A stretch of 64,000 bases of DNA from positions 341,730 to 405,729 of the forward strand of contig JAWLHE010000004.1 in the NCBI GenBank assembly GCA_041690495.1, given 5' to 3'. Below the pieces are notes generated by a model that saw only the letters and a list, made by a program, of their open reading frames with translations, did not search any database and was not told the DNA's origin. The translations under genes and the position numbers were made by a program. Source of the stretch: Alphaproteobacteria bacterium (GTDB taxonomy: Bacteria > Pseudomonadota > Alphaproteobacteria > CACIAM-22H2). Shown here piece by piece: positions 56,741 to 64,000 of the stretch (positions are counted from its first letter, which is position 1; each line of letters begins with the position of its first letter).

Positions 56741-56925
56741 TCGGGTTGCGGGGTCTAGCCAAGCTTCAGGATAGCACCGCCGGGCGCGGCGGCAAAAGCG
56801 CGGCGCCTCAAGGGGCTAGTCACGCCTGCGCGAGCCGCCGCCGGCTCGCGGGCGGATGCGAGCGGGGTGTTGGCAGGGCGACGCCTTGGGCTGTATGGTG
56901 CGCCGCCTGCACCGCAGGGCGAGCC

Positions 56926-57015
56926 GGAGGGATGGCCGAGTGGCTTAAGGCGCACGCTTGGAAAGCGTGTTTACGGGCAACCGTAACGTGGGTTCGAATC
57001 CCACTCCCTCCGCCA
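56926..57015 (+). tRNA. tRNA-Ser (anticodon GGA), 90 nt with long variable arm
   Basis: Hand-folded cloverleaf. Acceptor GGAGGGA/TCCCTCC is followed by discriminator G and encoded CCA. The anticodon stem CACGC/GCGTG carries loop TTGGAAA. The variable arm is 18 nt. The T-arm is GTGGG-TTCGAAT-CCCAC. Confidence 0.9.
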
Positions 57016-57139
57016 GTCATATCCGTAAACTATAACTAAATCAATGTATTATAGTGGAATTCGTTAACGGTTGGCGGGCATACCCACGCCCGTACCCACA
57101 ACGCCTCCACCGCTACTATCGGAGCCTGCACCGATACTG

Positions 57140-58312
57140 ATGTCGAAGAAAGTTCTGTTTCAGGGCGTTACCCCCGACAATCATTTAGCTGCCGTCCGGC
57201 AGGTCCTTTCGATTCCAGATCCGCAAAGGCTCCTCATAAGTGCAGCGTTCATGAATGAAGCGGGCTTGACGTTGCTCGAAGAAGCCCTGGCCCCGGTCGC
57301 CACTCACACAACAATCCTCGCCGGGATTCGCAACGGCATTACGTCGGCCCAAGGGCTTCGGAAGAGCCTCGCGATTGGCTGCTCCACTTACGCGGTGGAT
57401 ACTGGATCGCGCACAGTGATCTTTCACCCGAAAATCTACTATTCGCGGAACGAGAATGAGGCGCGCCTTATCGTCGGCAGCGCGAACCTCACGATTGGGG
57501 GCCTAAACGGAAACATCGAGGCGAGTCTGCTCCTGACGCTTGATCTTGATGACGAGGAAAACACGGCGCTTGCCGACGAGTTGGAAGAGAAGATCGACGG
57601 GATGATCGCCGAATACGAAGAGCATGTCTTCGTTGTGCCGGACGAAGCGATGATCCAGCGGCTGCTCGATTCCGGCAGACTCATCGATGAATCCCTTGTC
57701 GCTGCGCCCACGCCGTCCGGCGCATCAAGGGATCGCGATCTCGATACCGTGCCACGAATGAAGCTCAAGACGAGGGCTATCCTACGACCGCGTGTGCCAT
57801 CTCTTCCGGCACCGCCTGCACCCGCACCGCCCGCCCCTGCGCCTGCAGGCATTGCGGCACCGGTCCGGAAGAGGCTCGCGCTCGTGTGGGAAAGCAGCCC
57901 GCTCACGCGGCGTTATCTGACCATTCCGACCGGAGAGAACACGAACCCGACCGGTTCGATGCTCTTCGCGAAAGGGGCAATGAAGGATATCGACCAGAGG
58001 CACTATTTCCGGGACGAGGTGTTTGCCGGACTGGACTGGCACTTCGACACGGCTGCCGGACGCGAGCATATGGAACGGGCGGAAGCCCGGATTCAGCTCG
58101 TCATTCGGGACGTGGATTATGGCGTTTTCACGCTGCGGCTTTCGCATAACAGCCGCACCGATACGCGCGCCTACGAGCAGCGCAACAGCATGACACAGCT
58201 TCATTGGGGAGAGGCGCGTCCGTTGGTCGCGCGCGAAGACCTTCTCGGTCGGACAATGTATCTTTATCGGGACGAAGTAGACGAAGGCTTGTTCGTGATG
58301 GAAATCGACTAG
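57140..58312 (+). CDS. phospholipase-D-family (single HKD) nuclease with Pro/Ala linker and C-terminal domain of unknown fold; candidate restriction endonuclease
   Basis: Internal ATG MSKKVLFQG of ORF 57071..58312. The HKD motif TVIFHPKIYYSRNENEARLIVGSANLTIGGL fits HxK(x4)D...GSxN. A linker PAPPAPAPPAPAPAG is followed by a about 170 aa C-terminal domain. The gene converges on the MTase with a 4-bp overlap. Confidence 0.6.
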   Translation: MSKKVLFQGVTPDNHLAAVRQVLSIPDPQRLLISAAFMNEAGLTLLEEALAPVATHTTILAGIRNGITSAQGLRKSLAIGCSTYAVDTGSRTVIFHPKIYYSRNENEARLIVGSANLTIGGLNGNIEASLLLTLDLDDEENTALADELEEKIDGMIAEYEEHVFVVPDEAMIQRLLDSGRLIDESLVAAPTPSGASRDRDLDTVPRMKLKTRAILRPRVPSLPAPPAPAPPAPAPAGIAAPVRKRLALVWESSPLTRRYLTIPTGENTNPTGSMLFAKGAMKDIDQRHYFRDEVFAGLDWHFDTAAGREHMERAEARIQLVIRDVDYGVFTLRLSHNSRTDTRAYEQRNSMTQLHWGEARPLVAREDLLGRTMYLYRDEVDEGLFVMEID

Positions 58313-59943
58313 GCCGCCTCGGAGGAAACCCGGTGCCGCCTATCCCGTAGCTTCTTCCAGCCACTCATCAGTTCGTCCTGATCCGGCTTGGAAACACCGA
58401 TCGCGCCAAGAACAATCCTGCCCTGCCGCTCGAGAACCGCATCCATCGGCATCGACCGTATTGCCTTATCGAGAGATTCCAGTTTCGGTTCGATCTTTTT
58501 CGGGGCTGGAACTAGAAGCCTTTCGATTTCCGACGGGATAAGTTCAAGAACGCCACCGCCGTAATGACGGCCCTCAAGTTCAGCGCTCAGGGCCGTCAGC
58601 GGATTCATAAACCCAAATACAAGCTGGTCCGCCGAACCTTCCTTAACCGTGATGCGGTAGGCGGTGTCAGTCGTGTAGGCGCGCAGTCTGTTTAGAATCA
58701 GACGCGGCGTGTCGTGGCAGCGTTTAAGCATGCCGACTTCGGTCGCATAAACAGAGGGTACGGTGTACCAAGGGCTGCGGATACGGCACTTGTAGCGGGT
58801 ATGAAGCTTTTCGTCCTCGCCCTTGCGGATATAGGCTTTGCCGGTGCTGGATTTTTCTACGCTGGTGTCCTGAAACCAGACGAAGTTGGTAGGATTGCCC
58901 TTGGCGGCATTAGCCCTGTGCTGCGCCTCGTCATAGATTACGCCGGGGCAATGCTCGCTGCGCCCAAACATGGGGTGCGCCCATTTGCCCAGCCTAAATC
59001 GCTCAATGACTTCATCATTAACAAGGAAGAAGCTGTTGGCACCCGTCACGATGCCAACATCAACTTCTGCAATCTCGTCAAACCGGCTGACGGCATGCTC
59101 GTCGATCAGCCCGTCGAGCAAAGAGCGCGTATGCGGCTCCAATAGCGCCCGCGTCCACTTTCCCTCAACGGTCTTCCCGTTGATCGACTGGGGAGCGTTG
59201 AATATTTCCTCAGGGTTCTGCTTGATGAAGTCGCGTCCGCGCACTGGATAAATGCCGAGTCCCTCAGCGCGGTCGCTCGGTCCTCGCTTTTTTTCCACGA
59301 GAAGCAGAACAGCCCCTTGAAGCGTCCCCGGAAACCAAAGGTCCTCGGGATCGATGACGACCAGCCGCCGGGCGTTAGCGCCTAAATATGAGCGCAGCGA
59401 CTGCGCGTGCGTGACATGGATGATCTCGGCGGGCACAACCATTGCCAGCCGACCGCCGGGGCGCAGCAGGGCAAACGATGCCAGAATGAACGGCACCCAG
59501 GCGTTGGTGTGCTTTGTGAATTTGCAGGCCAGTTCGCTAAAGATCCGCTCAGCGCGGCCTTGAAACGGCGGCGGCAGATACTGATAACGAATAAAGGGCG
59601 GATTCCCGAGCACTGCGTCGAAGCGCGCCCCTTCATCGCCGAGAGCGTCGATTGCCCAGCCCAGAAAATCACCATCCCTGATGGTGACACGCGAGAGGCC
59701 GGAGCTCTTTGCACGCTTGGAAGCCTTCCGGGCCTCGGCGCTGTTGATCTCAAAGCCCGTGACCAAAGGATTGCCAAGAGTGTCTGCGATCTTGTCGAAG
59801 AAGACCCCGTCGCCGCAACTCGGCTCCAGGATCGATTCCGGGGCGCCTTTTGCGATCCAGCGCACCAGAAAACCCGCAAGATCGTCGGGCGTATAGTACC
59901 CGCCGCGAAGTTTCTGCTCTGTCTGAAATTCTCTGAAATTCAT
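58309..59943 (-). CDS. N6-adenine DNA methyltransferase, gamma class (motif I before motif IV), with C-terminal target-recognition region
   Basis: Internal ATG MNFREFQTEQ. Motif I is ILEPSCGDGVFF (FxGxG) and motif IV is LGNPPFIRY (NPPF/Y). About 300 aa of C-terminal extension follows. Confidence 0.8.
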   Translation of the reverse strand: MNFREFQTEQKLRGGYYTPDDLAGFLVRWIAKGAPESILEPSCGDGVFFDKIADTLGNPLVTGFEINSAEARKASKRAKSSGLSRVTIRDGDFLGWAIDALGDEGARFDAVLGNPPFIRYQYLPPPFQGRAERIFSELACKFTKHTNAWVPFILASFALLRPGGRLAMVVPAEIIHVTHAQSLRSYLGANARRLVVIDPEDLWFPGTLQGAVLLLVEKKRGPSDRAEGLGIYPVRGRDFIKQNPEEIFNAPQSINGKTVEGKWTRALLEPHTRSLLDGLIDEHAVSRFDEIAEVDVGIVTGANSFFLVNDEVIERFRLGKWAHPMFGRSEHCPGVIYDEAQHRANAAKGNPTNFVWFQDTSVEKSSTGKAYIRKGEDEKLHTRYKCRIRSPWYTVPSVYATEVGMLKRCHDTPRLILNRLRAYTTDTAYRITVKEGSADQLVFGFMNPLTALSAELEGRHYGGGVLELIPSEIERLLVPAPKKIEPKLESLDKAIRSMPMDAVLERQGRIVLGAIGVSKPDQDELMSGWKKLRDRRHRVSSEAA

Positions 59944-60128
59944 TTGGCCGATCCCTTCTTTGGGGTTTGAGGGCTCGGCGTGCGCCGTTCTTCGAGGTAA
60001 CGTCCGGCGGCCTGGATAAACCATTCCTTGAGGGTGGAGTCCTCCATAGCCAAAGCGCTGTAGAGCCGCCGCTTGAGCGTGGGGTCTACGTCAACAACGA
60101 TTCGGCCTGACTCTCCTTTGGGCATCAA
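59940..60128 (-). CDS. ribbon-helix-helix (CopG/Arc-like) DNA-binding protein, candidate controller of the MTase
   Basis: 62 aa. RIVVDVDPTLKRRLYSALAMEDSTLKEWFIQAAGRYLEE is a beta-strand followed by two helices. Its TGA overlaps the MTase ATG (ATGA at 59940-59943). Confidence 0.55.
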   Translation of the reverse strand: MMPKGESGRIVVDVDPTLKRRLYSALAMEDSTLKEWFIQAAGRYLEERRTPSPQTPKKGSAK

Positions 60129-60155
60129 TGGGTTCCAACCCGACTCAGATAACTT

Positions 60156-60173
60156 ATGTTACATAGCTAACAT
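60156..60173. promoter_or_regulatory. perfect inverted repeat ATGTTA-CATAGC-TAACAT about 28 bp upstream of the RHH gene start; candidate operator
   Basis: Read directly from the sequence in an AT-rich intergenic region (60129-60435). Confidence 0.4.
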
Positions 60174-60435
60174 GAGTCGCGTGGAATCGTCCAGCGGAGA
60201 TGTCGATCCATTCTAGGCCATATCATGGCGCACCACTTGTCATGGCGAACGCCGTCCTCAATCCAACGGGGCTTGAATCGAGCTATTCCTTAATCATCGG
60301 GGCATTGACGTTCTCGTTGTAACACAAGCTCTCGTGTCCTGTGTTGCAGGGCGATCGATAAAGAAGCAAACCAGCTTGCCAGCGTAGAGAGGCAAGAGCG
60401 CCTTCAACGTGTGTAGGTTCCCATCGACGGATCGG

Positions 60436-61563
60436 TTATGAAGAACCCAAGATGCGCTCAGCGGCCGCCAATCCCTCCCGAAGTTTGGCAATGGTTTCGA
60501 GCCGCTCGGCGGGTGCGCTACCAAGGCCCTGAATTATCTCCGCCTGCCGCTCACATGGGACTTGGCCATAGCTCATGAATGTGGTCATTACGTTGTCGTG
60601 GCCGACATTCTGACTCCAGGCCTTGAACTCCTCGGGAGTCCGGCACCGCTGCTGTCCGAGCCGGATCAGCGTTTTACGGAATCTGTGCGGCGGGAAGTAC
60701 GGCATGCCGCTGCTGGTGAACGCTTCGCGGAATATGCTTCGGATCGGCGACGCGTTGCTCCAGTGCTTGCGGTCGAGTCCATCTGAGGCGAACAAGCCGT
60801 TGCTATCGACGCAGAGCCGAGTAGCCGGAAAAAGAGGATCGTCAGGCCCCCATAGAAGCGAGGTCTGCAAGTAACCGACCCAATCGGCCACGATCTCTTG
60901 AACGTCCCCTCCGACCGGAAAGAAGTACGTCACAAATGTTTTGCTGAACTTGGTGCGGACCTCACGGGCGTCCTGCACTACCCGTCCCTTAGACAATTCC
61001 ACGTGTTTCAGCTTGAGAGATGCCAACGCGCCGTCGCGCACTCCGGTAAGTATCGTGAAGGCAATGAGAGCTCGATTCCGCCGCTCGATAGCCGTAGCCC
61101 GTGGCATGGAAGCAAGGACGTATTTGACCTGCTCGACCGTGGGAACGGGCTGTTCCCGGGTCGCCTTCGCCACTCGCATCTCCTTTTCGGAAAGATTGAA
61201 ATACTCCGCGTCTGCATAGCGAAGCCGGGAACGGAACCCCGGTTCTCCCGCGAGCCATTGGAAGAACTTCTTGAGCGCGGCGAGGGTCGAATATCGGCTG
61301 GCCTCGCTCAGTCGCCCTTTGGCGCGCCGGCTGTCCTGCTGTGCGAGCTGCTTCTTGAACGCGATCGCCTGTTGGATGTGGAACGACCGGAAGTCCCGAT
61401 ATTTCGTGTAAACCTCGAACTTATGCAGCGCGGATGCGACTCCATCCAGAGAGGAGTCGCTGTAACGCTTGGCCTCGCGCAGATATGAAAAGTACCGTCG
61501 CTTGACGCGTTCATTGTTTGGGTTGTTCGTCTGCATTGCCTTCACCCGCGTTCTCCAAGTCAC
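60436..61563 (-). CDS. tyrosine-type site-specific recombinase/integrase (375 aa)
   Basis: The catalytic region has ...ILTGVRDGALASL... (Arg), HRFRKTLIRLG (HxxR) and a C-terminal ...MSYGQV (Tyr). Confidence 0.75.
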   Translation of the reverse strand: MTWRTRVKAMQTNNPNNERVKRRYFSYLREAKRYSDSSLDGVASALHKFEVYTKYRDFRSFHIQQAIAFKKQLAQQDSRRAKGRLSEASRYSTLAALKKFFQWLAGEPGFRSRLRYADAEYFNLSEKEMRVAKATREQPVPTVEQVKYVLASMPRATAIERRNRALIAFTILTGVRDGALASLKLKHVELSKGRVVQDAREVRTKFSKTFVTYFFPVGGDVQEIVADWVGYLQTSLLWGPDDPLFPATRLCVDSNGLFASDGLDRKHWSNASPIRSIFREAFTSSGMPYFPPHRFRKTLIRLGQQRCRTPEEFKAWSQNVGHDNVMTTFMSYGQVPCERQAEIIQGLGSAPAERLETIAKLREGLAAAERILGSS

Positions 61564-62020
61564 AACTCACGCACTGTCCGTTACGACCTTCTATGTGCTG
61601 TTCGCCCTCCGGATACGTCACGTCCATATCGGACGCAATCGTCGCCAACCTGCAACGAGAGACCCGGCGATAGATCAGAGTCGAGCAGTCTGGACACAAG
61701 GCTCGAAGATTCCCGCCGGACGCCGTCAATGGCAGATACTCCGCCATGCCTTCAGCCGGCCGCCTGGGCGCGCGACACTTAACGCAATAGATTTCGCCCG
61801 GCGCACAGACTCGCCTTGCAGCAACACGTCGCTTTTGTAGGAAGGCCTGGAGATCGGCACCAAAAATCAACGTGGGCCGGCGGCGGTCGATGGCGGGCAG
61901 ACCGGACCTCAGCCAATTGCGAACCGTATTCTTATGAACGTCAAATAAGCGGCCGACCTCTTCGACCGTATAGTTTCGATGGATCTTGACCAGCCGAGGG
62001 TTGGGATTGCGGCGCCCCAT
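61511..62020 (-). CDS. HTH DNA-binding protein with C-terminal Cys-rich (zinc-ribbon-like) region
   Basis: An N-terminal HTH YTVEEVGRLFDVHKNTVRNWLRSGLPA is followed by Cys pairs CVKC...CPDC...CVSC. The 3' end overlaps the integrase start by about 26-53 bp. Confidence 0.5.
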   Translation of the reverse strand: MGRRNPNPRLVKIHRNYTVEEVGRLFDVHKNTVRNWLRSGLPAIDRRRPTLIFGADLQAFLQKRRVAARRVCAPGEIYCVKCRAPRRPAEGMAEYLPLTASGGNLRALCPDCSTLIYRRVSRCRLATIASDMDVTYPEGEQHIEGRNGQCVSCDLENAGEGNADEQPKQ

Positions 62021-62047
62021 CGCGGACCAGAATGCGATAGGCGTATA

Positions 62048-62245
62048 CTAAACGCGTCGCTTTTGGGTCTGACTGGCCTCACGTAGTGCGTTGAACCAGG
62101 CGTCGCCATCCACCGTCGCGATGATTGAACGCCTGCCAATCTTCGTGAGGTGCAGGCGCCCCTCAGCGATCTCTTGGTAAAGCCGCGTGCGGCTGATGCC
62201 GTAATGCTCGCAAGCTTCGACAATCGAAAATCCGGCCTTGTTCAT
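62048..62245 (-). CDS. AlpA/excisionase-like small HTH protein
   Basis: 65 aa. FSIVEACEHYGISRTRLYQEIAEGRLHLTKIGRRSII is an MerR/AlpA-like HTH typical of island excisionases. Confidence 0.55.
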   Translation of the reverse strand: MNKAGFSIVEACEHYGISRTRLYQEIAEGRLHLTKIGRRSIIATVDGDAWFNALREASQTQKRRV

Positions 62246-62330
62246 GTCCACCGTTCCTTTCTGCGGGATACAACCGCGTGTCGGTGAACACAATGTCGTC
62301 CAGAGAACGCCCGAAGAATATATGGTCAAA

Positions 62331-63146
62331 TCAGGATTTGCGAAAATCGCTCGCGTACATGCGGAGGATGCGCAAACGCAACGCATTGACGCTTGGGCCG
62401 TCGCCGTCCCTTCGTAGATTCAATAGCGCCAATCCCGCCACTACGAAGCGCAGCAGAGGGCCAGCCGCTCGCCCTTGTATCGAGACCGATGTTTGAACGC
62501 GGCGCCCAAGCACGTCTATCCAAATTCGCAACATGCCGGCCATAGCATCATTGAGGGGTTGACCGGTCCAAGGGTCGAGCCATCTTTCGAGGTCGTCCGC
62601 GCGTTTCCCCTTCCGCGCGCGAGTGTGGCTTTGGAGGTTGAGCGCCCACGCCCGAAGTTGGCGAATGGCGCTTATGTTGTCGCGCAACTGCGAATCGCTT
62701 TGGTAGTCCTTGAACACCTCACCGCCAATCGAGAATGTCCTCGGCGGATGGTGCTCGAAGCCATTGCGGCGTTCGCCATCTCGTTCTGCTTCCCATCGAA
62801 GCCCGTCACGTACTTGGCGGGGAACATCGATCAACTCACTGTGGCCACCGACTCCTATCGCACTAAGTAGCTTATCGGCAGCCGCCCCGATTGCGTGAAA
62901 CCGCTTTTCCAGTTTGCTCGGTGACAGGTCATTCAGATGTTGCAGATTGATTTGCGTCAGCTCATGGATGACTTCGAGTCGTTTAACGATTGCCACCGCA
63001 CGTAGGACCTCGGCCCTCTTACCGGTCTCGTGGTCGTCAATCTCAATGCTGCCCGGTGGAATTGGAGCCGCAGCACGAAGGACGCGGAGAACGTCCTCTC
63101 GGGCAAACTTTCCTGTGTAGACCGGTTCTTCCATTACGCCAGTCAC
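62331..63146 (-). CDS. hypothetical protein (271 aa), island cargo
   Basis: Long ORF with balanced composition. No recognisable motif. Confidence 0.45.
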   Translation of the reverse strand: MTGVMEEPVYTGKFAREDVLRVLRAAAPIPPGSIEIDDHETGKRAEVLRAVAIVKRLEVIHELTQINLQHLNDLSPSKLEKRFHAIGAAADKLLSAIGVGGHSELIDVPRQVRDGLRWEAERDGERRNGFEHHPPRTFSIGGEVFKDYQSDSQLRDNISAIRQLRAWALNLQSHTRARKGKRADDLERWLDPWTGQPLNDAMAGMLRIWIDVLGRRVQTSVSIQGRAAGPLLRFVVAGLALLNLRRDGDGPSVNALRLRILRMYASDFRKS

Positions 63147-63173
63147 GGCTCAGAAAGCGAGCAAGCGCGCTTT

Positions 63174-64000
63174 TTAGGCGCGAAGCCTGACGACACTCCC
63201 GCTCTTTCGCGGCGTGCCGCAGAACCTCGCCCACTCTGACATGAGGCGCCGTCGCTTCTCCAGGAGATCGCCGCGCCGATAGGCAGCCTCTACTTTGTCG
63301 GGAATAGAATGCGCTAGAGCCTGCTCCGCAACCTCGCGCGGATAGTTGGTCCGCTCAGCCGCCCAGTCGCGGAACGTAGACCGGAACCCGTGCACGGTCA
63401 GGTCGGACCGACCCATGCGATTCAACAGCGCAAGCAGCGCCATGTTGGAAAGCGGCTTACCGGACTTGCCGCCCGGGAATACCCAATCCGACAGTTGCTC
63501 CTTTTTCAGGGCTAACAAAATCCGAATGGCCCGGTCGGGAAGGGGAATACGGTGTTCGCGCCCCGCCTTAATACGGTCAGCAGGGATCGTCCACATGGCG
63601 TTCGGAAGATCGATCTCGCTCCAGCGCGCCCCGATGGTTTCGCTGGTTCGGGTGGCCGTCAAAATCAGAAACTCCAACGCTTGGGCAGCTACCCCGTCCT
63701 GGTCGCGAAGCTGACCTATGAACGGCCCGATGTCGTCATAGGGCAGCGCTGGTCGGTGAACCACCTTTTGCACCTTAGACCGGTTGGGCAGGAGGTTTTC
63801 CAGATGGCCCTTCCAGCGCGCCGGATTGTCTCCGGTGCGGTGCCCGCGCGCCGCCGCCCAGTCCAGTACCGACTCGATGCGCCCGCGCACGCGACTGGCC
63901 GTCTCGGTCTTGGTGGCCCAGATCGGCTCCAACGCCTTCGCGACTAGGCCCGTGTCAATTTCCTTGACCGAGAGCCGCCCGAATACCGGCGAGGCATAGG
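63174..64000 (-). CDS. int: P4-type tyrosine integrase, partial (N-terminus beyond window end)
   Basis: ...LILTATRTSETIGARWSEIDL...HGFRSTFRDWA...AYRRGD... gives the R...HxxR...Y catalytic set. The reading frame stays open past 64000. Confidence 0.85.
   Translation of the reverse strand, partial: YASPVFGRLSVKEIDTGLVAKALEPIWATKTETASRVRGRIESVLDWAAARGHRTGDNPARWKGHLENLLPNRSKVQKVVHRPALPYDDIGPFIGQLRDQDGVAAQALEFLILTATRTSETIGARWSEIDLPNAMWTIPADRIKAGREHRIPLPDRAIRILLALKKEQLSDWVFPGGKSGKPLSNMALLALLNRMGRSDLTVHGFRSTFRDWAAERTNYPREVAEQALAHSIPDKVEAAYRRGDLLEKRRRLMSEWARFCGTPRKSGSVVRLRA

What the first reader, a model, noticed from the sequence alone, without database searches (positions are those of the whole stretch)
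56926..64000. tRNA-Ser(GGA)-flanked integrative island carrying two different tyrosine recombinases
Immediately after the tRNA CCA the sequence becomes AT-rich (57016-57070), typical of an att junction. The next 7 kb are all mobile-element-type genes. These include a 375-aa tyrosine recombinase preceded by an overlapping HTH/zinc-ribbon protein and an AlpA-like excisionase candidate. A P4-type integrase at the window edge reads toward the tRNA. Two recombinases about 2.5 kb apart suggest a composite or tandemly inserted element. The R-M-like module and a 271-aa orphan protein are the cargo. The right end, and therefore the true size, lies outside the window.
Basis: partly seen in the sequence, partly recalled or inferred. 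Interest (0 to 1): 0.6.

Follow-up and report, generated by a model that had tools for sequence, protein, structure and literature searches.

The report
Small tRNA-Ser defence island, two recombinases
This is an ordinary small mobile island of about 7.6 kb, inserted at the end of a serine tRNA gene, that carries a restriction-modification system and, unusually, a second recombinase module that turns up inside similar islands in many other bacteria.

Summary
tRNA-Ser(GGA) is at 56926-57015. It is followed by a 55-nt stretch of 31% GC and about 7 kb of 58% GC DNA, against a 66% GC core.

The P4-type integrase at the window edge belongs to a clade specific for tRNA-Ser. About half of 73 relatives share the window's layout, with the integrase at the tRNA-distal end reading inward. 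In those, an inverted tRNA 3' fragment (TGGCGGA-N7-TCCGCCA) lies 560-620 nt upstream of the aligned integrase region. The window's tRNA-proximal junction carries two TACCCAC heptamers 12 nt apart. Their reverse complement occurs three times upstream of the closest relative's integrase gene.

So this is one P4-type island, not a tandem array, and no internal att copy exists. Its right end is predicted about 0.55-0.62 kb beyond the window.

The interior is a mosaic of separately conserved modules:
- orf271 plus AlpA;
- a zinc-ribbon HTH protein plus an intact Xer-like recombinase;
- a 3-kb cassette with a BfiI-like PLD endonuclease, an M.Eco57I-like methylase and a small ORF.

The second recombinase pair sits near another integrase in 8 of 11 contexts examined. 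Its role is unresolved.

The parts
56926..57015 (+). tRNA-Ser(GGA), the integration target (attL side). The last 14 nt, CACTCCCTCCGCCA (57002-57015), are the predicted identity segment shared with attR.
   Evidence: ARAGORN and Rfam at 60.9 bits. In 7 of 7 relatives with the same layout, an 11-16 nt repeat of the tRNA-Ser 3' end lies just upstream of int.
57016..57070 (.). AT-rich spacer of the island's tRNA-proximal att arm.
   Evidence: 30.9% GC. No 55-nt window in the core is at or below 35%. Relatives have the same AT-rich stretch after the tRNA.
57081..57099 (+). Two arm-type integrase-binding heptamers, TACCCAC, at 57081-57087 and 57093-57099, 12 nt start to start.
   Evidence: These are the only TACCCA[CT] copies on either strand in 56900-64000. 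Relatives carry paired 6-9-mers at exactly 12-nt spacing, 43-66 nt from the tRNA end. The closest int relative, L069 (70% identity), has GTGGGTA three times just before its int ATG.
57140..58312 (+). BfiI/NgoAVII-like PLD-family restriction endonuclease (390 aa): an N-terminal HxK...GSxN nuclease domain and a C-terminal DNA-binding domain.
   Evidence: Pfam PLDc_2 and RE_NgoFVII, both weak. Best PDB sequence hit is BfiI 2c1l. The AF2 model (pLDDT 76.9) has BfiI as best fold match at E=4e-11 over the full length, then SauUSI and R.NgoAVII. The source's own protein P0123 starts at 57140.
58309..59943 (-). Type II N6-adenine DNA methyltransferase, M.Eco57I type (544 aa from M28, NPPF motif). It is convergent with the endonuclease gene and overlaps it by 4 nt.
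   Evidence: Pfam M_Eco57I_C at 6e-90, plus N6_Mtase and Eco57I. PADLOC MTase_II at 2.8e-188 over residues 28-565. The same gene pair occurs in L102 and L101.
59940..60128 (-). 62-aa ORF coupled to the methylase by an ATGA stop/start overlap. It is a putative controller of the R-M cassette, and its function is inferred.
   Evidence: Sequence reading. A 64-aa ORF sits in the same position in L102. 72% nucleotide identity with L101 runs from 57145 to 60174. No family hit.
60436..61563 (-). Xer-like 'simple' tyrosine recombinase (375 aa; the source aa) with an intact catalytic set. Its target site is unknown.
   Evidence: Pfam Phage_int_SAM_1 plus Phage_integrase. R176, K205, H293, R296, H322 and Y332 are conserved in alignment A1. 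The 120 homologues listed are 59-67% identical, apart from the source's own protein at 100%.
61511..62020 (-). 169-aa HTH_17 (excisionase-family) plus Cys4 zinc-ribbon protein. It overlaps the recombinase start and is its constant partner.
   Evidence: Pfam HTH_17 at 9e-9. C79, C82, C109 and C112 are invariant in alignment A2. It is found directly upstream of the recombinase in L055, L081-L083, L085-L088, L090, L094-L098 and L100.
62048..62245 (-). AlpA-like 65-aa HTH protein, the probable activator or directionality factor for the P4-type integrase (inferred).
   Evidence: HTH_17 and the TIGR01764 excisionase domain. 47% identity to small genes 0.6-1.4 kb downstream of int in L047 and L007. 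About 67-70% identity to the L099 gene that follows the orf271 homologue.
62331..63146 (-). orf271, an orphan of unknown function that forms a two-gene unit with the AlpA-like gene.
   Evidence: Only 2 proteins in 5.8 billion: itself and P0122 at 72%. L099 carries both genes, at 71% nucleotide identity over window 63135-62073. No Pfam, NCBIfam, PHROG, PADLOC or PDB hit. The AF2 model is unusable at pLDDT 43.5.
63174..64000 (-). P4-type (arm-binding) tyrosine integrase, C-terminal about 275 aa. The reading frame is open to the window edge, and the start is predicted near 64,409.
   Evidence: Translation. Pfam Phage_int_M plus Phage_integrase. NF007246 at 3e-29 and phrog_1 at 5e-43. The 80 relatives at 55-70% identity are almost all next to tRNA-Ser.

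Best explanation
The segment from 57016 to about 64,600 is a single small genomic island of about 7.6 kb. A P4-type tyrosine integrase integrated it into the 3' end of tRNA-Ser(GGA).

The integrase gene sits at the tRNA-distal end, with its 5' end next to attR, and reads into the island. The core site is inverted relative to int compared with the textbook tRNA->int layout.

Inferred mechanism:
- Int binds arm-type heptamers (TACCCAC/GTGGGTA) in both arms.
- Int also binds a core of the form TGGCGGA-CACTCCC-TCCGCCA.
- Recombination between attL (the tRNA 3' end) and attR (predicted at about 64,535-64,621) excises a circle and leaves the tRNA intact.
- The AlpA-like protein acts as activator or directionality factor.

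The interior is a mosaic of three independently conserved modules:
- orf271 plus AlpA.
- A zinc-ribbon HTH protein plus an intact Xer-like recombinase, probably an excisionase/integrase pair from a different island lineage. Its site and role here are unknown.
- A 3-kb type II R-M cassette (BfiI-like PLD endonuclease, M.Eco57I-like methylase, small ORF). It gives phage defence and post-segregational stability.

Shown: the gene identities, the tRNA specificity of the integrase clade, the arm sites, the module boundaries, and the absence of an internal att. Inferred: the position of attR, excision activity, and the roles of AlpA, orf271 and the second recombinase.
For: Integrase clade and layout:
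- Integrase relatives sit at tRNA-Ser genes with GGA, TGA, CGA or GCT anticodons.
- Roughly 30 of 73 informative loci have a full tRNA-Ser directly upstream of int. Roughly 30 have TGGCGGA-N7-(G)TCCGC(CA) 557-623 nt upstream of the aligned region.
- All 7 loci with a convergent tRNA-Ser within 10 kb have an exact 11-16-nt direct repeat of the tRNA 3' end at that spot.
- The bounded segments are 3-10 kb. In 6 of 7, their GC is below that of both flanks.
- L007 and L011 carry exactly the reverse complement of the window's 14-mer.

Arm sites:
- TACCCAC occurs twice, 12 nt apart, 66 nt after the tRNA. These are the only copies in the island.
- Relatives have pairs with the same 12-nt spacing.
- L069 has GTGGGTA three times before its int.

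No internal att copy.

Module boundaries:
- L099 shares only orf271 plus AlpA.
- L101 shares only 57145-60174, lying between crcB/DUF190 and argG with no integrase nearby.
- The HTHZn-Rec pair recurs on its own in more than 10 loci.

R-M identity.

Catalytic residues of the second recombinase are intact.
Against: - attR and the integrase N-terminus lie outside the window, and the source contig could not be retrieved. The right boundary is therefore a prediction by analogy.
- No empty-site comparison with related strains was possible.
- The integrase gene is 63% GC against about 58% for the rest of the island. The integrase and its cargo may have different histories.
- More elements could follow beyond attR.
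- A homologue of the second recombinase is the only recombinase in a tRNA-Phe island bounded by a repeat of at least 40 nt (L093). Rec375 could therefore be an active integrase in its own right, with sites I failed to recognise.
Confidence: 0.75

Rival explanations
1. This is a tandem (accreted) array. An element driven by the 375-aa recombinase (R-M, Rec375, HTHZn) lies next to the tRNA, and a separate P4-type element (AlpA, orf271, int) follows it. Each has its own att sites.
For: There are two different recombinases, each with an HTH partner. In L093, a Rec375 homologue is the only recombinase inside an island bounded by tRNA-Phe and a direct repeat of at least 40 nt. The modules are independently conserved.
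Against: No tRNA-derived or other repeat lies between the two sets of genes. The AlpA stop and the HTHZn start are 27 nt apart. The arm-type heptamers beside the tRNA match the distal P4-type integrase clade. Rec375 homologues are 56-64% identical to one another yet sit near tRNA-Ser, -Asp, -Asn and -Phe or near no tRNA, which does not fit a fixed tRNA specificity. L093 lacks the HTHZn partner and may be a decayed island.
Confidence: 0.1
2. The integrase belongs to an island anchored on a second tRNA-Ser gene on the minus strand just beyond the window (the textbook tRNA->int layout). On this reading, the tRNA-Ser(GGA) at 56926 merely happens to lie at that island's far end.
For: About half of the integrase relatives have a full tRNA-Ser directly upstream of int. 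A TGGCGGG heptamer at 57073 could be read as a degenerate inverted tRNA end.
Against: The implied tRNA end (GGGTATGCCCGCCA) matches no tRNA-Ser acceptor seen in the relatives, all of which start with GGA. The TACCCAC pair would then lie only 2-20 nt from the core, whereas relatives have it 43-66 nt away. Measured from the GGA tRNA it is 66 nt away, as in layout-B relatives. The AT-rich stretch directly abuts the GGA tRNA, as it does in the layout-B relatives.
Confidence: 0.07
3. The two recombinases are a functional pair in a conserved dual-recombinase island design. One possibility is that the P4-type Int handles tRNA integration while the zinc-ribbon-HTH/Xer-like pair resolves multimers of the excised replicon. 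Another is that the pair exchanges the cargo placed downstream of it.
For: 8 of 11 contexts with enough flanking DNA have another integrase within 10 kb, and 7 of those are P4-type. The order int-X-AlpA-HTHZn-Rec recurs in the window, L055, L086, L094 and the Ruegeria plasmid locus L100. Defence genes directly follow Rec in the window, L055, L081, L082 and L093; in L094 a cpYpsA gene follows. In L081 and L096, HTHZn-Rec is co-linear with AlpA and an 850-aa protein at 71% nucleotide identity.
Against: Integrase identity to the window varies from 29% to 61% while Rec stays at 56-64%, so the two do not co-diverge. The orientation of Rec relative to int varies: same direction, convergent and divergent. 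Only 1 of 80 relatives of the window's integrase carries the pair. No conserved flanking site was found. tRNA loci accumulate islands anyway, so co-occurrence could be passive.
Confidence: 0.2

Closest known systems
P4 / CP4-57-type tRNA- or tmRNA-integrated islands (arm-binding integrase plus AlpA)
   Same: An arm-type tyrosine integrase (Phage_int_M plus catalytic domain; NF007246). An AlpA-family small HTH gene lies downstream of int. Insertion is at the extreme 3' end of a tRNA. The island is small and of atypical composition.
   Different: int is at the tRNA-distal end, with the core site inverted relative to int; this layout is shared by about half of this integrase clade. There are no primase or capsid-redirecting genes. 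The island carries a second recombinase module.
BfiI and NgoAVII restriction enzymes (PLD nuclease plus B3-like DNA-binding domain)
   Same: These are the best full-length fold matches (2c1l at E=4e-11; 4rct at 3.6e-5). The HxK...GSxN residues are invariant. The gene is convergent with and overlaps a methylase gene.
   Different: Only 12-15% sequence identity. The partner is a single M.Eco57I-type gamma-class methylase plus a 62-aa ORF. The recognition sequence is unknown.
Simple (Xer-like) tyrosine recombinases of mobile elements, as classified by Smyshlyaev et al. 2021 (PMC8138268)
   Same: A core-binding (SAM-like) domain plus a catalytic domain, with no arm-binding domain and a complete RKHRHY set. 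[quoted passage not shown]
   Different: That survey found Xis partners only with arm-binding recombinases. Here a simple recombinase has a constant, overlapping excisionase-family HTH/zinc-ribbon partner. No PDB relative is found by sequence. The pair is not on phages or IMG/VR contigs and is rare on plasmids.
Accreted or tandem islands at tRNA loci (several integrases from successive insertions)
   Same: More than one tyrosine recombinase lies downstream of one tRNA gene.
   Different: An internal att copy separating the units is the defining feature, and it is absent here.

Membership tests
P4-type tRNA-integrated genomic island | Arm-binding tyrosine integrase of the P4 type | tested here: met
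   Phage_int_M plus Phage_integrase. NF007246 aligns to model positions 140-402. The N-terminal arm-binding domain lies outside the window and was not seen.
P4-type tRNA-integrated genomic island | Insertion at the 3' end of an intact tRNA gene that the integrase clade targets | tested here: met
   The tRNA is intact. Relatives at 55-70% identity are next to tRNA-Ser genes.
P4-type tRNA-integrated genomic island | Direct repeat of the tRNA 3' end at the other boundary (attR) | not testable with these tools
   It is predicted at about 64,535-64,621, outside the window. The source contig was not retrievable. The repeat is present in 7 of 7 analogous relatives.
P4-type tRNA-integrated genomic island | Arm-type integrase binding sites in the att arms | tested here: met
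   TACCCAC occurs twice at 57081 and 57093, 12 nt apart. This matches GTGGGTA occurring three times in L069, and paired repeats in 6 relatives.
P4-type tRNA-integrated genomic island | Composition unlike the host, and absence from related strains | tested here: inconclusive
   GC is 58.3% against 65.9% for the core. Presence or absence in related strains could not be tested, because the genome scan did not recover the host species.
Type II restriction-modification system | N6-adenine methylase with catalytic NPPF and a full-length match to type II methylases | tested here: met
   PADLOC MTase_II at 2.8e-188 and Pfam M_Eco57I_C at 6e-90. GNPPF is visible in the translation.
Type II restriction-modification system | Adjacent endonuclease with a nuclease fold, and a gene pair conserved elsewhere | tested here: met
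   The fold matches BfiI and NgoAVII. The same three-gene unit occurs in L102, and there is 72% nucleotide identity across the unit in L101. Cleavage activity itself was not tested.
Tandem or accreted island array | Internal att copy between the units | tested here: not met
   No match to the 14-mer with 2 or fewer mismatches in 57016-64000. The best local alignment of the tRNA plus junction scores the same as the shuffled null.
Tyrosine recombinase, simple (Xer-like) class | RKHRHY catalytic residues, a core-binding domain and no arm-binding domain | tested here: met
   R176, K205, H293, R296, H322 and Y332 are conserved. The SAM-like domain starts at residue 23.
Tyrosine recombinase, simple (Xer-like) class | An identifiable recombination site | tested here: inconclusive
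   No conserved flanking motif or repeat was found in 13 loci.

The most novel reading that the evidence does not exclude
The overlapping zinc-ribbon-HTH/Xer-like recombinase pair is an uncharacterised recombination system. It is widespread in alpha-, beta- and gammaproteobacteria, and the 120 homologues listed are 59-67% identical. On this reading it is functionally tied to P4-type tRNA islands, for example as a second integration specificity, a resolution system for the excised circle, or a device that swaps the defence cargo placed directly downstream of it. The window would then be one example of a conserved dual-recombinase defence-island design rather than a chance mosaic.
Probability: 0.2. 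Interest if true: 0.6.

Novelty: new member of a known kind. Interest (0 to 1): 0.33.

Why it matters
As it stands, this is a routine tRNA-linked defence island. Its value is practical:
- It gives a precise, testable boundary prediction.
- It identifies the arm and core sites for a tRNA-Ser-specific integrase clade.
- It shows that integrases of this clade work in two mirror-image layouts.

The more interesting lead is the second recombinase pair. It repeatedly sits inside islands that already have their own integrase, next to variable defence genes. If the two are functionally linked, that would point to an unrecognised way in which small islands manage or exchange their cargo.

Tried and rejected
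- **Source contig.** Exact look-ups of three island proteins and of the 100%-identical database protein P0001 found no contig. The cluster look-up gave no accession. The single genome scan returned only relatives at 70% identity or less.
- **Metagenome scan with Rec375.** It gave 9 loci, mostly short. The IMG/VR scan gave none. There were no phage hits, 4 plasmid hits and no E. coli DNA hit.
- **Rec375 recombination site.** I compared the DNA downstream of the gene across 13 loci and ran a k-mer enrichment scan. The only hits were tRNA-Phe sequence and coding homology. Inverted and direct repeats around the R-M cassette were not above chance.
- **Homology of orf271 to the roughly 270-aa genes in the same position in L082, L094, L096 and L055.** None found. 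Its structure model was unusable at pLDDT 43.5, so no fold search was run.
- **L094 against L095 for a cargo breakpoint.** They are the same sequence.
- **Literature searches for dual-recombinase islands.** Nothing specific was found.
- **Promoter and terminator scans.** Counts were at chance level.
- **Inversion-switch reading of Rec375 next to the R-M genes.** Rejected for lack of inverted repeats.
Full report
**Observation.** ARAGORN finds a single tRNA in the window, tRNA-Ser(GGA) at 56926-57015 (+). Rfam confirms it at 60.9 bits. The next 55 nt (57016-57070) are 30.9% GC, and no 55-nt window in the 56.9-kb upstream core is at or below 35%. GC falls from 65.9% in the core to 58.3% over 57016-64000. 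Upstream lie lepA and a small membrane-protein ORF, which look like core genes.

**Gene content**:
- PLD-family protein, 57140-58312 (+).
- M.Eco57I-type N6-adenine methylase, 58309-59943 (-). It is convergent with the PLD gene and overlaps it by 4 nt.
- 62-aa ORF, 59940-60128 (-). Its stop overlaps the methylase ATG (ATGA).
- 375-aa tyrosine recombinase ('Rec375'), 60436-61563 (-).
- 169-aa HTH_17 protein ('HTHZn'), 61511-62020 (-), overlapping the Rec375 start.
- 65-aa AlpA-like HTH protein, 62048-62245 (-).
- 271-aa protein with no family hit ('orf271'), 62331-63146 (-).
- P4-type integrase, 63174 to the window edge (-), about 275 aa with the frame still open.

The five minus-strand genes from int to Rec375 are separated by 28, 85 and 27 nt and then an overlap. 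They could be one transcription unit; that is an inference.

**Which recombinase owns the tRNA junction?** A genome scan with the integrase fragment returned 80 loci at 55-70% identity. The source genome was not among them. These integrases are tRNA-Ser specialists. They occur in two mirror layouts.
- Layout A: a complete tRNA-Ser lies directly upstream of int on the same strand.
- Layout B: the same position holds the reverse complement of a tRNA-Ser 3' end, TGGCGGA-N7-(G)TCCGC(CA). It lies 557-623 nt upstream of the aligned region.
- Roughly 30 of 73 informative loci fall in each class.

In all 7 layout-B loci with a tRNA-Ser within reach, that tRNA lies 2-9 kb downstream of int, convergent with it. 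An exact 11-16-nt direct repeat of its 3' end sits at the upstream spot. The bounded segments are 3-10 kb, and in 6 of 7 their GC is below that of both flanks.

The window has layout B. L007 and L011 carry exactly the reverse complement of the window's CACTCCCTCCGCCA. By analogy, the window's attR core should lie at about 64,535-64,621 and the int start near 64,409. That gives an island of about 7.6 kb.

**Arm sites.** In layout-B relatives, the island side of the tRNA carries two identical 6-9-mers exactly 12 nt apart, 43-66 nt from the tRNA end. Examples are TACCCATAC in L047, ACCCATC in L075 and L042, and TACCGTACT in L045. The same motifs recur next to the int start on the other arm.

The window has TACCCAC at 57081 and 57093, 12 nt apart and 66 nt from the tRNA. 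These are the only TACCCA[CT] copies in the island on either strand. The closest integrase relative, L069 (70% identity), has the reverse complement GTGGGTA three times immediately before its int ATG.

So the tRNA-proximal junction is an att arm of the distal P4-type integrase. Everything in between lies inside one element. These sites overlap the long TTG-start ORF at 57071. That fits the source's own gene call, which starts at 57140 (P0123).

**No tandem array.** No copy of the 14-mer with 2 or fewer mismatches exists in 57016-64000. The best local alignment of the tRNA plus junction against the island scores the same as the shuffled null.

**Mosaic interior.**
1. *orf271 plus AlpA.* orf271 has one homologue in 5.8 billion proteins (P0122, 72%). 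Its contig, L099, carries the orf271 homologue followed by an AlpA-like gene at about 67-70% amino-acid identity. Nucleotide identity of 71% runs exactly over window 63135-62073. The neighbours on both sides differ. AlpA-like genes also follow int in relatives that lack Rec375 (L047, L007).
2. *HTHZn plus Rec375.* The 120 homologues listed are 59-67% identical to Rec375, apart from the source's own protein at 100%. The catalytic residues R176, K205, H293, R296, H322 and Y332 are conserved. HTHZn has invariant C79, C82, C109 and C112. It precedes the recombinase in every locus examined with enough sequence, except L093 and L084.
3. *R-M cassette.* L101 shares 72% nucleotide identity over 57145-60174. 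There the cassette lies between crcB/DUF190 and argG, with no integrase nearby. L102 has the same PLD / methylase / 64-aa unit.
 - The methylase matches a type II model over its full length (PADLOC, 2.8e-188).
 - The PLD protein model (pLDDT 76.9) has BfiI as its best fold match (2c1l, E=4e-11, full length). SauUSI and R.NgoAVII follow.

**The second recombinase.** Eleven contexts of Rec375 homologues have enough flanking DNA to judge. Eight of them have another integrase within 10 kb, and seven of those are P4-type.
- With another integrase: the window; L055 (tRNA-Asp); L081 and L087 (tRNA-Ser); L086; L094 (tRNA-Asn); L100 (a Ruegeria conchae plasmid, where the order is arm-type int, hyp, hyp, AlpA, HTH, Rec); and L083 (tRNA-Phe, with a different integrase).
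- Without: L082, L093 and L096.

Defence genes directly follow Rec in the window (type II R-M), L055 (type III-like R-M), L081 (a deaminase, with BREX genes elsewhere in the locus), L082 (SNF2, type I R-M, GmrSD) and L093 (type I R-M plus HigBA). In L094 a cpYpsA gene follows.

Several facts argue against a fixed functional partnership:
- Integrase identity to the window varies from 29% to 61% while Rec stays at 56-64%.
- The relative orientation varies.
- Only 1 of 80 relatives of the window's integrase has the pair.
- I found no conserved site.

L093 shows a Rec homologue as the sole recombinase in an island bounded by tRNA-Phe and a repeat of at least 40 nt. It lacks HTHZn, though, and may be decayed.

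I therefore treat the pair as an integration/excision module from another island lineage that recurrently ends up inside P4-type islands. Its role here is unresolved. The family is absent from phage records and IMG/VR contigs, and rare on plasmids. A published survey found Xis partners only with arm-binding recombinases (PMC8138268). A simple recombinase with a constant excisionase-family partner is therefore mildly unusual.

**Verdict.** This is one small P4-type, tRNA-Ser-integrated defence island, and a new member of a well-known kind. The 'tandem insertion' reading is not supported, and 'composite' holds only as a mosaic of modules. The main weakness is that attR and the integrase N-terminus lie outside the window and the source contig could not be fetched. 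Interest is modest. The recurring dual-recombinase arrangement is the only part that might repay further work.

Noticed in passing
L001-L080 (integrase relatives); window 57002-57015: Integrases of one clade (55-70% identical) use the tRNA-Ser 3' end in two mirror layouts. In one, a full tRNA lies directly upstream of int. In the other, an inverted fragment forms a near-perfect 7-7-7 palindrome-armed core, TGGCGGA-N7-TCCGCCA, with the tRNA at the far end of the island. So the core site has flipped relative to int within a single clade.
   Followed up: yes
L055, L081-L083, L086, L087, L094, L100 (NZ_CP081104.1 523223-544230): The zinc-ribbon-HTH plus Xer-like recombinase pair is nearly always found within 10 kb of another integrase, usually P4-type. 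These loci sit at different tRNAs (Ser, Asp, Asn, Phe) or at none. Variable defence genes often lie directly downstream of the pair.
   Followed up: partly
L081 6605-11034 and L096 2170-6515: A block of AlpA, an 850-868-aa protein with no Pfam hit (77% identical between the two loci), HTHZn and Rec is conserved at 71% nucleotide identity. It looks like the backbone of a separate island type. The large protein may be a replication protein, but this is untested.
   Followed up: partly
L101 2658-5677: The same 3-kb PLD/methylase cassette sits between crcB/DUF190 and argG with no recombinase nearby, and the methylase is called truncated (305 aa). This suggests the R-M cassette moves or decays independently of islands.
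   Followed up: partly
L093 9031-18818: A 9.8-kb island is bounded by tRNA-Phe and a direct repeat of at least 40 nt. It carries a type I R-M, HigBA and a Rec375 homologue as the only recombinase, but no HTHZn partner.
   Followed up: partly
window 60129-60435: A 307-bp non-coding gap of 52% GC, the lowest in the island interior, lies between Rec375 and the R-M cassette. It contains short palindromic stretches just upstream of the 62-aa ORF (TAGCTA; ATGTAACAT is near-palindromic). This may be the R-M promoter/operator.
   Followed up: no
window 63174-64000 vs 57140-63146: The integrase gene is 63.1% GC while all other island genes are 57.6-59.3%. This hints that the integrase and its present cargo have different histories.
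   Followed up: no
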